Source: a virus (lineage: Duplodnaviria > Caudoviricetes). Taken from it: a stretch of 64,000 bases of DNA. The notes under the pieces were generated by a model. That model did not search any database, was not told where the DNA came from, and saw nothing but the letters and a program-made list of their open reading frames with translations. The translations under genes and the position numbers were made by a program. The stretch is from positions 128,001 to 192,000 of IMG/VR virus record IMGVR_UViG_3300049144_000095; one strand, written 5' to 3'. Numbering within the stretch: the first letter of the stretch is position 1; every line of letters starts with the position of its first letter. This document shows positions 47,773 to 47,908 of this stretch, in pieces.

Positions 47773-47840
47773 ACAGGTGTGCTGCCAATTACACCATCAC
47801 GACCGAGGCCGTGACTGGGATTCGAACCCAGACCTCCTAT
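47773..47840 (-). ncRNA. Circularly permuted anticodon-less tRNA mimic B (YrlA-like domain)
   Basis: ATAGG-AGGT-CTGGG TTCGAAT CCCAG-TCACGGC-CTCG-GTCGTGA-TG-GTGT AATTGGCA GCAC-A-CCTGT. Confidence 0.8.
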
Positions 47841-47842
47841 TT

Positions 47843-47908
47843 GCTGGCGTGCTTCCCTACACCACTCAGACTGTCGTCCGATCCAGGATTCGAACCTGAG
47901 CCTCCAGC
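47843..47908 (-). ncRNA. Circularly permuted anticodon-less tRNA mimic A (YrlA-like domain)
   Basis: GCTGG-AGGC-TCAGG TTCGAAT CCTGG-ATCGGAC-GACA-GTCTGAG-TG-GTGT AGGGAA GCAC-G-CCAGC. Confidence 0.78.

What the first reader, a model, noticed from the sequence alone, without database searches (positions are those of the whole stretch)
47773..47908. Two tandem circularly permuted, anticodon-less tRNA mimics inside a tRNA operon
Seen: between tRNA-Phe and tRNA-Asn (minus strand) lie two units of 66 and 68 nt, joined by AA linkers, with the same layout: 5-nt strand, variable loop, full T arm (TTCGAAT), acceptor 3' strand, 4-nt cap loop (GACA or CTCG), acceptor 5' strand, U8-G9, D arm, then a 5-nt strand pairing with the first (GCTGG/CCAGC; ATAGG/CCTGT). 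Acceptor stems pair 6/7 and 7/7. The two units differ in sequence but keep the pairing. Read the ordinary way (5' half of A plus 3' half of B), the acceptor stem does not pair and the anticodon arm is truncated. Only 2 nt flank each end, so circularisation could not rebuild a 7-nt anticodon loop. Established: T, closed acceptor stem, D order is the topology of the tRNA-like domain of bacterial YrlA Y RNAs, which normally continue into a Ro60(Rsr)-binding stem. Here there is no such stem and no Ro60/TROVE or RtcB gene was recognised in the window. Inference: these may be minimal stand-alone tRNA-elbow mimics, possibly decoys for tRNA-binding defence or modification enzymes, co-transcribed with real tRNAs.
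Basis: partly seen in the sequence, partly recalled or inferred. Interest (0 to 1): 0.93.

Follow-up and report, generated by a model that had tools for sequence, protein, structure and literature searches.

The report
Free-standing tRNA-body mimics in phage
Inside the tRNA gene cluster of a 251-kb soil (probably Streptomyces) phage sit two small genes for RNAs shaped like a tRNA with its acceptor end sealed and its anticodon loop missing; this is the tRNA-like half of a bacterial Y RNA without the half that binds Ro60, and it is conserved with compensating mutations, so these are probably working RNAs and not dead tRNAs.

Summary
Units A (47843-47908, minus strand) and B (47773-47840, minus strand) each hold a complete tRNA body in permuted order, with a 4-nt cap on the acceptor stem and no anticodon loop. 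They lie 2 nt from tRNA-Phe, from each other and from tRNA-Asn.

- **Conservation:** the same pair occurs in two related ~250-260-kb phage genomes. The proposed pairs hold in 95% of cells, against 32-46% when partners are slid. Three double compensatory changes occur among unit-B orthologs. Identity is 87-88%, against 57% for a nearby spacer.
- **tRNA likeness:** ARAGORN calls every unit a tRNA once it is re-permuted around a synthetic loop, and none natively.
- **Genome context:** The genome encodes Ro60 (TROVE) with canonical YrlA-type Y RNAs about 47 kb away, outside the window.

The units are therefore YrlA-type tRNA-like modules without the Ro60-binding stem. Free-standing analogues lie between tRNAs in two unrelated phage contigs; one is a complete genome without TROVE.

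Function is untested. I favour a decoy or competitor for a factor that recognises the tRNA elbow or the acceptor-T minihelix. No RNA data exist. This scan has noted partnerless YrlA-like RNAs on other DNA before. I rate it a new variant of a known kind.

The parts
47843..47908 (-). Unit A, 66 nt. Closing strand 47908-47904; V loop 47903-47900; T arm 47899-47883 (loop 47894-47888); acceptor 3' strand 47882-47876; cap GACA 47875-47872; acceptor 5' strand 47871-47865; TG 47864-47863; D arm 47862-47849; G 47848; closing strand 47847-47843.
   Evidence: Read. The MFE fold of the unit alone is the permuted cloverleaf. R1 scores it 83 bits. ARAGORN calls it a tRNA only after re-permutation. Orthologs lie at L080:2230-2295 and L243:2720-2785.
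47841..47842 (-). AA linker between units A and B.
   Evidence: The same AA linker is present in both relatives.
47773..47840 (-). Unit B, 68 nt. Closing strand 47840-47836; V loop 47835-47832; T arm 47831-47815 (loop 47826-47820); acceptor 3' strand 47814-47808; cap CTCG 47807-47804; acceptor 5' strand 47803-47797; TG 47796-47795; D arm 47794-47779; A 47778; closing strand 47777-47773.
   Evidence: Read. R1 scores it 89 bits. Orthologs at L080:2298-2365 and L243:2788-2855 carry compensatory changes in the closing, T and acceptor stems.
47910..47984 (-). tRNA-Phe(GAA), 2 nt upstream of unit A. Its 3' processing would set the 5' end of the A-B RNA.
   Evidence: ARAGORN and Rfam.
47696..47770 (-). 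tRNA-Asn(GTT), 2 nt downstream of unit B. RNase P cleavage at its 5' end would set the 3' end of the A-B RNA.
   Evidence: ARAGORN and Rfam.

Best explanation
Units A and B are genes for free-standing tRNA-body mimics.

**What they are.** Each RNA folds into a four-way junction with a T arm, a D arm, a 7-bp acceptor stem sealed by a tetraloop, and a 5-bp remnant of the anticodon stem that holds the RNA's own two ends. This is the tRNA-like ('effector') module of YrlA-type Y RNAs. It lacks the long terminal stem that carries the Ro60-binding site.

**How they are made (inferred).** They are transcribed with the neighbouring tRNAs. The tRNA-processing enzymes that mature tRNA-Phe (3' end) and tRNA-Asn (RNase P, 5' end) would release a ~138-nt A-AA-B dimer, or two ~66-68-nt monomers.

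**What they can and cannot do.**
- With no anticodon and no free 3' end, they cannot decode or be charged.
- They do present an intact tRNA elbow and an acceptor-T minihelix.

**Likely function (inferred).** I think they bind a protein or RNA that recognises those surfaces, acting as a decoy or competitor. Candidates are the still unknown effector of the phage's own Ro60-Y RNA particle, or a host tRNA-processing or tRNA-targeting defence enzyme.

**Shown:** anatomy, conservation, covariation, and genomic linkage to tRNAs.
**Inferred:** expression, processing, binding partner, and benefit to the phage.
For: **Anatomy**
- Read. All tRNA tertiary hallmarks are kept: U8, A14, GG in the D loop, T-loop TTCGAAT.
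- The Levitt pair covaries: G15:C48 in A, A15:U48 in B.
- Re-permuted around a synthetic 7-nt loop, all units are called tRNAs by ARAGORN; natively none is.

**Covariation**
- On 6 sequences (A and B from three phages), 95.2% of 126 cells pair, against 32-46% when partners are slid.
- 9 pairs change on both sides. 0 of 500 shuffles reach the observed score.
- Among B orthologs alone there are three double changes: A-U to G-C, U-A to C-G, and U-A to C-G.

**Conservation**
- A is 88% and B 87% identical between G000 and G001.
- Real tRNAs are 77-99% identical; the Lys-Phe spacer is 57%.

**Synteny**
- Cultured Streptomyces phage Quantum has Gln-17 nt-Asn.
- G001 and L243 have Gln-A-B-Asn.
- G000 lost Gln and its spacer but kept A intact, 2 nt from Phe.

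**Link to Y RNAs**
- The model built from the units (R1) hits, over its full length, the tRNA-like modules next to TROVE in G000, G001 and Quantum.
- The canonical Y RNA folds with about 20 extra base pairs of terminal stem that the units lack.

**Analogues elsewhere**
- L014:105-173 lies between tRNA-Ile and tRNA-Ser in a complete 326-kb genome without TROVE.
- L019:4785-4853 lies between tRNA-Gln and tRNA-Ala.

**Caps.** The caps are often ultra-stable tetraloops (cUUCGg in B of G001, B of L243 and L014; cUGCGg in A of G001 and L243). This fits a sealed end.
Against: - No RNA-seq exists. The five holder runs listed are all soil DNA, and the four laid (X1, X3, X4, X5) carry the identical sequence. 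Expression and ends are therefore unknown.
- Only three orthologous genomes were found.
- Close relatives L242 and L246 (81% identity in the flanking protein) lack the units, so they are dispensable accessories.
- One closing-stem pair is broken in A of G001, and two pairs are broken in B of L243.
- Folding energies do not beat shuffles.
- R1 also scores tandem-tRNA junctions at 25-40 bits. The 28-33-bit hits to Y-RNA modules show shared architecture, not proven homology.
- No binding partner is identified. The decoy idea has no direct support.
Confidence: 0.55

Rival explanations
1. The active form is nicked. Host RNase P cuts each 7-bp acceptor stem at the cap, and the new 3' end is trimmed and receives CCA, as in Mycobacterium smegmatis YrlA. 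The products would be held together by base pairs: 3' half of A; 5' half of A-AA-3' half of B; 5' half of B. They would display tRNA-like CCA ends, which could be decoys for enzymes that act on the 3' end.
For: Chen et al. 2014 (PMC4201824, read) found that M. smegmatis YrlA, the one with a 7-bp acceptor stem, is cut by RNase P in vitro and in vivo and gains CCA. Units A and B have 7-bp stems with G1-C72, and the host is probably an actinobacterium (L243 comes from a Streptomyces assembly).
Against: Caps are tight 4-nt loops, several of the very stable UNCG type, which looks like selection for a closed end. After nicking, each unit's two strands would be held only by base pairing (the 5-bp closing, 7-bp acceptor stems) and tertiary contacts. 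No cap begins with a discriminator followed by CCA. The phage has no CCA-adding enzyme.
Confidence: 0.2
2. The units are non-functional debris: leftovers of tandem duplication and deletion among tRNA or Y-RNA genes, slowly decaying.
For: Phage tRNA arrays are recombination-prone. The units are missing from some close relatives. A few stem mismatches exist. The same cluster holds other odd tRNA-like genes.
Against: Conservation equals that of real tRNAs and far exceeds spacer DNA. Most stem changes preserve pairing: 7 of 7 in unit B between G000 and G001, and 1 of 2 in unit A. Three are double compensatory. The Levitt pair covaries. The units survived a deletion that removed the adjacent tRNA-Gln. 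Independent analogues exist in unrelated phages.
Confidence: 0.12
3. They are cis-acting processing or stability elements for the tRNA operon (extra RNase P/RNase Z landing sites, or protective structures for neighbouring tRNA ends), with no role of their own.
For: They sit flush (0-3 nt) against tRNAs in every case. tRNA-like structures are used as RNase P processing signals elsewhere (mascRNA/MALAT1, cited in bioRxiv 10.1101/312249).
Against: The neighbouring tRNAs already carry their own processing signals. Relatives without the units have the same tRNAs. Full conservation of the elbow and the D/T tertiary pairs is more than a spacer or landing site would need.
Confidence: 0.07
4. They are Ro60 (Rsr) ligands after all. 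The phage Ro60 would bind them through the stacked 5-bp closing stems of the dimer, or through their single-stranded ends in the central cavity.
For: The genome encodes Ro60 and three Y RNAs. The D arm of the units closely resembles that of Y RNA 2.
Against: There is no terminal stem and none of the conserved flanking motifs shared by the three Y RNAs. The units lie ~47 kb away on the opposite strand. Rfam YrlA gives 15 bits against a gathering score of 69. An analogue exists in a complete genome without TROVE.
Confidence: 0.05
5. They are true permuted tRNA genes that mature into decoding tRNAs by circularisation or ligation.
For: The 3' half precedes the 5' half, as in permuted tRNA genes of some algae (from my own knowledge; not checked here).
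Against: Joining the ends gives a loop of at most 4 nt (CG plus AA, or AA plus AA), so no anticodon is possible. Flank lengths differ among analogues (0 to 9 nt). There is no RtcB in the genome.
Confidence: 0.01

Closest known systems
YrlA (Y RNA-like A; Rfam RF02553), the tRNA-mimicking Y RNA of bacteria and Ro60-encoding phages (Chen et al. 2014, PMC4201824; Wang et al., bioRxiv 10.1101/312249)
   Same: The module order is the same: V region, T arm, loop-closed acceptor stem, D arm, and a helix in place of the anticodon arm. The tRNA tertiary nucleotides are the same. Canonical copies sit in this very genome next to TROVE.
   Different: There is no terminal 5'/3' stem, no Ro60-binding motif, and no rsr within 4 kb or on the same strand. 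The units are two copies joined head to tail by AA and packed between tRNAs. They score far below the Rfam threshold. Chen et al. discarded hits that overlapped tandem tRNAs or lay more than 4 kb from rsr, so such units would not have been reported.
Mycobacterium smegmatis YrlA, the RNase P-cleaved, CCA-tailed form
   Same: It has a 7-bp acceptor stem like a real tRNA and an actinobacterial setting.
   Different: It is still a Ro60-bound Y RNA with a terminal stem. Whether units A and B are cleaved is unknown.
Circularly permuted tRNA genes of some algae and archaea (from my own knowledge, not checked here)
   Same: The 3' half is encoded upstream of the 5' half, and the acceptor ends are joined by a short intervening sequence.
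   Different: Those genes regain a 7-nt anticodon loop by circularisation and become decoding tRNAs. Here no anticodon loop can form.
mascRNA/menRNA-type tRNA-like small RNAs (Rfam RF01684)
   Same: They are tRNA-like bodies with a reduced anticodon arm, released by tRNA-processing enzymes.
   Different: They have normal 5'-to-3' order and an open acceptor end. The sub-threshold hit (23.7 against 42.5 bits) uses the ordinary register, in which the acceptor pairs only 4/7.

Membership tests
YrlA / Y RNA (RF02553) | tRNA-like module in the order T arm, loop-closed acceptor stem, D arm | tested here: met
   The model built from the units aligns over its full length to the modules beside TROVE.
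YrlA / Y RNA (RF02553) | Long stem formed by the 5' and 3' ends that carries the Ro60-binding site | tested here: not met
   Only a 5-bp closing stem exists, and tRNAs or the sister unit lie 2 nt away on each side. The genome's own Y RNA 3 has about 20 further base pairs.
YrlA / Y RNA (RF02553) | Encoded within about 4 kb of rsr, on the same strand | tested here: not met
   The single TROVE gene is at genome 223022-224632 (+). The units are at 175773-175908 (-), about 47 kb away. The arrangement is the same in G001.
YrlA / Y RNA (RF02553) | Reaches the Rfam gathering score (69 bits) | tested here: not met
   15 bits, covering model positions 30-81 only. Even the canonical copy scores only 39 bits.
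YrlA / Y RNA (RF02553) | Bound by Ro60/Rsr | not testable with these tools
   Needs RIP or EMSA.
tRNA (RF00005) | Cloverleaf in 5'-to-3' order with a 7-nt anticodon loop and a free acceptor end | tested here: not met
   There is no ARAGORN or Rfam call natively. There is no anticodon loop, and the acceptor is capped.
tRNA (RF00005) | Conserved body: 7-bp acceptor, D and T arms, elbow nucleotides | tested here: met
   ARAGORN calls all six units once re-permuted with a synthetic loop. The Levitt pair covaries.
Permuted tRNA genes | Ends that rebuild a 7-nt anticodon loop on joining | tested here: not met
   At most 4 nt are available.
DUF7873-linked tRNA-mimic RNA pairs (lead from earlier notes of this scan) | The RNA pair follows a DUF7873 protein gene | tested here: inconclusive
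   Seven ORFs around the cluster give no such Pfam hit, and tRNA-Phe lies directly upstream. The whole genome was not scanned for the family because I did not have its accession.

The most novel reading that the evidence does not exclude
Free-standing, capped, anticodon-less tRNA bodies are a class of phage small RNAs that work without Ro60. They are excised from tRNA arrays by the host's own tRNA-processing enzymes. They act as competitive decoys for a tRNA-elbow or acceptor-binding factor. That factor could be a tRNA-cleaving defence nuclease that does not depend on the anticodon, or the long-sought effector of the YrlA tRNA-like domain.
Probability: 0.3. Interest if true: 0.85.

Novelty: new variant of a known kind. 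Interest (0 to 1): 0.64.

Why it matters
- **An open question becomes testable.** Since 2014 the partner of the YrlA tRNA-like domain has been unknown. Wang et al. predict an elbow-binding protein with some sequence specificity. A natural minimal version of that domain, without the Ro60-binding half, conserved with compensatory changes and also present in a TROVE-less phage, suggests the domain can work on its own. It also gives a small, clean bait for pull-downs.
- **Survey blind spot.** Published Y-RNA surveys excluded hits near tandem tRNAs or far from rsr. Elements like these would therefore have been missed by design.
- **Phage-host conflict.** Recent work shows many bacterial defences cut tRNAs: at the anticodon loop (PMC10264068), the anticodon arm (PMC12445682), the variable loop (PMC13096335), and by Schlafen nucleases (PMC13056530). 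RNA decoys that cannot be disabled at the anticodon would be a new counter-measure.

Tried and rejected
- **Tandem-tRNA false positive:** rejected. No tRNAs are called, and the ordinary register pairs only 4/7.
- **Permuted decoding tRNA:** rejected. The loop would be at most 4 nt.
- **Rfam YrlA, mascRNA and tRNA hits:** all sub-threshold. YrlA at E<=1 also rings in 13 of 14 control genomes, so it is not informative.
- **Thermodynamic support:** none. The z-scores are weak. The MFE of the 140-nt dimer is a T-arm-to-T-arm misfold only 1.2 kcal/mol below the two-cloverleaf state.
- **More orthologs by DNA pattern:**
  - Viral scans gave only G001.
  - One junction pattern used too narrow a D-loop gap and returned an unrelated class.
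  - The single metagenome scan found no relative among the 80 of 109 stretches returned; those were normal-order tRNA-likes with truncated anticodon arms.
  - A scan for relatives of the L014 unit found only itself.
- **More orthologs via flanking proteins:**
  - The neighbouring 108-aa and 591-aa ORFs found nothing.
  - The flanking 89-aa protein did work and gave L243 and L244.
- **Expression:** all listed runs that hold the sequence are DNA, and the four laid are identical.
- **RtcB and CCA-adding enzyme in the genome:** absent.
- **TROVE search in the records behind L242-L244:** not possible, because those records are not held.
- **Literature:** no paper in the held library describes free-standing permuted tRNA-like units in phage tRNA arrays.

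Full report
**Where the window lies.** The window is bases 128001-192000 of a 251,159-bp IMG/VR virus record rated complete (G000). Its only DNA similarity to cultured phages is to ~186-kb Streptomyces phages such as Quantum and Satis, over 2% of a 16-kb query. A close relative of the flanking gene sits on a 252,977-bp contig of an assembly labelled Streptomyces sp.. Streptomyces is therefore the likely host. The identical sequence occurs in contigs of several soil metagenome studies.

**The observation.** On the minus strand the order is tRNA-Phe, CG, unit A (47908-47843), AA, unit B (47840-47773), AA, tRNA-Asn. Each unit reads as follows:
- a 5-nt strand
- a 4-nt variable loop
- a 5-bp T stem with loop TTCGAAT
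- a 7-nt acceptor 3' strand
- a 4-nt cap
- a 7-nt acceptor 5' strand
- TG
- a GTGT/GCAC D stem with GG in the loop
- one base
- a 5-nt strand complementary to the first

Acceptor stems pair 6/7 and 7/7, and closing stems pair 5/5 in both units. In the ordinary register (5' half of A, AA, 3' half of B) the acceptor pairs 4/7 and no anticodon hairpin can form. ARAGORN and Rfam find tRNAs on both sides but nothing in between.

**Is it more than chance?**
- A scanner for this exact architecture finds three sites in the genome: A, B and one Y-RNA module. It finds none in 40 Markov resamples.
- When the two halves of each unit are swapped and joined by a synthetic 7-nt loop, ARAGORN calls a full tRNA in every case. 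Natively it calls none. Each unit is therefore a complete tRNA body minus the anticodon loop.
- The Levitt pair covaries between the paralogs: G15:C48 in A and A15:U48 in B. This points to a real tRNA-type tertiary fold.
- Folding energies do not stand out from shuffles. That is normal for tRNAs and means energy gives no support.
- The two-cloverleaf state of the dimer lies 1.2 kcal/mol above the computed MFE.

**Relatives and covariation.** The flanking 89-aa protein led to two genomes with the same pair:
- G001 is a 259,646-bp record with terminal repeats. Its order is Phe, 111 nt, Gln, 1 nt, A, AA, B, CAA, Asn.
- L243 has Gln, A, AA, B, TGA, Asn.

On the six sequences the proposed structure pairs in 95.2% of 126 cells. 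With partners slid by 1-3 columns, 32-46% pair. Nine pairs change on both sides, and none of 500 column shuffles reaches the observed covariation score. Much of that signal is the A-versus-B difference. Within unit-B orthologs alone there are still three double compensatory changes, one each in the closing, T and acceptor stems.

Between G000 and G001 the units are 88% and 87% identical. This is within the range of the real tRNAs (77-99%) and well above the Lys-Phe spacer (57%). Changes fall mostly in loops, the caps above all. There are blemishes: one broken closing pair in A of G001 and two broken pairs in B of L243.

**History of the slot.**
- Cultured phage Quantum has Gln and Asn 17 nt apart.
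- G001 and L243 have the pair inserted there.
- G000 has lost tRNA-Gln and its upstream spacer but kept unit A intact, 2 nt from tRNA-Phe.
- Two equally close relatives, L242 and L246, have other sequence in the slot and no units.

The units are therefore an accessory feature. They are maintained where present but are not essential to the lineage.

About 47 kb away, outside the window and on the other strand, the genome has its only TROVE (Ro60/Rsr) gene. Three structured RNAs with shared flanking motifs lie directly upstream. One matches Rfam YrlA over its full length at 39 bits, E 4e-8, which is below the gathering score. It folds as a textbook Y RNA: a 10-bp terminal stem, an internal loop, a second helix, then the tRNA-like module.

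G001 has the same cassette. So does phage Quantum, where the gene is annotated 'Ro-like RNA binding protein' and the RNAs are unannotated. A covariance model built only from units A and B (R1) hits those modules over its full length at 28-39 bits. Tandem-tRNA junctions reach similar scores, as Chen et al. warned. I therefore take this as shared architecture, plus a very similar D arm in Y RNA 2, and not as proof of descent. The genome has no RtcB and no CCA-adding enzyme.

**Comparison with what is known.** Chen et al. 2014 (PMC4201824) defined YrlA RNAs as Ro60-bound RNAs with a tRNA-like domain. They found them in 254 bacteria and 22 phages, and kept only hits within 4 kb of rsr that did not overlap tandem tRNAs. 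Wang et al. solved the domain's structure. They describe YrlAs as resembling circularly permuted tRNAs with closed acceptor stems, state that all characterised Y RNAs have a long terminal stem with the Ro60 site, and predict an unknown elbow-binding effector.

Units A and B have the domain but fail three defining features of the family: the terminal stem, linkage to rsr, and the Rfam score. They work like the YrlA effector module but are not Y RNAs in the defined sense.

M. smegmatis YrlA has a 7-bp acceptor stem, is cut by RNase P and gains CCA. Units A and B also have 7-bp stems, so nicking is possible. The frequent UNCG-type caps in the orthologs argue for a sealed end.

**Analogues elsewhere.** Among phage loci fetched with a T-loop/D-arm pattern, most capped modules sit inside long-stemmed Y-like RNAs. 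Two are free-standing like A and B:
- L014:105-173 lies 0 and 3 nt from tRNA-Ile and tRNA-Ser, in a complete 325,854-bp genome with no TROVE match.
- L019:4785-4853 lies 3 and 9 nt from tRNA-Gln and tRNA-Ala, in a densely packed array.

A more distant relative of G000 has a single, less tRNA-like unit right after tRNA-Arg (L244:3063-3131). These cases are single sequences without covariation support. The L014 unit does not fold to the cloverleaf by energy alone.

Earlier notes of this scan report partnerless YrlA-like RNAs on other DNA, some following a DUF7873 gene. I did not test those notes. No such Pfam hit appears in seven ORFs around this cluster.

**Mechanism.**
- *Shown:* the anatomy, its conservation, and its placement flush between tRNAs on one strand, with no promoter-like or minus-strand terminator-like site found across 46500-49600.
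- *Inferred:* co-transcription with the tRNAs; release by 3' processing of tRNA-Phe and RNase P cleavage at tRNA-Asn; an L-shaped fold that shows the elbow and the acceptor-T minihelix while being unable to decode, be charged, or be cut at an anticodon.

I favour a decoy or competitor role for a factor that reads those surfaces. The factor could be the effector of the phage's own Ro60-Y RNA particle, a host processing or modification enzyme, or a tRNA-targeting defence nuclease. Published defences cut tRNAs at several sites (PMC10264068, PMC12445682, PMC13096335, PMC13056530). None of this is tested.

My confidence that these are selected, structured tRNA-body RNAs is high. My confidence in the specific function is low. 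The combined statement gets 0.55.

**Verdict.** The finding is a new variant of a known kind. It is interesting mainly because it isolates the YrlA tRNA-like domain from Ro60 binding and offers a direct route to that domain's unknown partner.

Noticed in passing
outside the window: G000 222329-224632 (L002:1830-4133): There is a Ro60/TROVE gene (536 aa) preceded by three Y-RNA-like genes. They share a 5' motif ending GTTACTTC and a 3' motif containing GGTTAACC, and carry different inserts. An ATP-grasp (Ter-operon type) ORF and a ProQ-C-like ORF follow. The same cassette lies unannotated upstream of the 'Ro-like' gene of Streptomyces phage Quantum.
   Followed up: partly
window 46745-46864 (-): A probable tRNA-Tyr(GTA) with a ~49-nt variable arm. 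It has a good acceptor stem and T arm but is missed by ARAGORN and by Rfam at gathering threshold. ARAGORN does call a normal-length (89-nt) tRNA-Tyr(GTA) in relative L242 (2722-2810), though orthology was not checked.
   Followed up: partly
window 48618-48704 (-): The 87-nt 'tRNA-Gly(ccc)' has normal acceptor, D and T arms. Its anticodon arm is replaced by a long irregular hairpin capped by GCAA, and ARAGORN puts the anticodon at position 27. It may be a third non-decoding tRNA-like RNA. The RNA at the same slot in G001 is different: ARAGORN reads an 8-nt loop with a 4-base anticodon.
   Followed up: partly
window 47911-47984 (-): tRNA-Phe has the anticodon loop GUGAAAU (G32, U38) instead of the usual CU-GAA-AA, and this is conserved in G001. 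It recalls the anticodon-loop variants proposed to evade anticodon nucleases (PMC10264068).
   Followed up: no
window 47625-47695 (-): About 70 nt just downstream of tRNA-Asn are ~90% identical between G000 and G001, including a hairpin and a T-loop-like GTTCGAGTC. This is much more conserved than other spacers.
   Followed up: no
L110, L124, L150, L164, L170, L186, L189 and others (metagenome contigs): A widespread class of normal-order tRNA-like RNAs has a 7-bp acceptor stem, an encoded CCA, and D and T arms, but only a short hairpin in place of the anticodon arm. It was found by accident with the junction pattern.
   Followed up: no
L079, L061, L075, L032, L056, L045, L048, L037, L058 versus L078, L006, L038, L030, L034: Phage Y-like RNAs fall into two groups by the motif 5' of the tRNA-like module. 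Four of five loci with GTTACTTC (L078, L006, L038, L030) have a TROVE gene in the locus; L034 was not checked. Of the loci with CAGCAA, those checked show no TROVE in the fetched locus; L048 and L037 were not checked.
   Followed up: no
L014:1375-1488: Between tRNA-Arg and tRNA-Gly of the 326-kb phage lies a mini element with a 7-bp acceptor-like stem and a D arm only.
   Followed up: no
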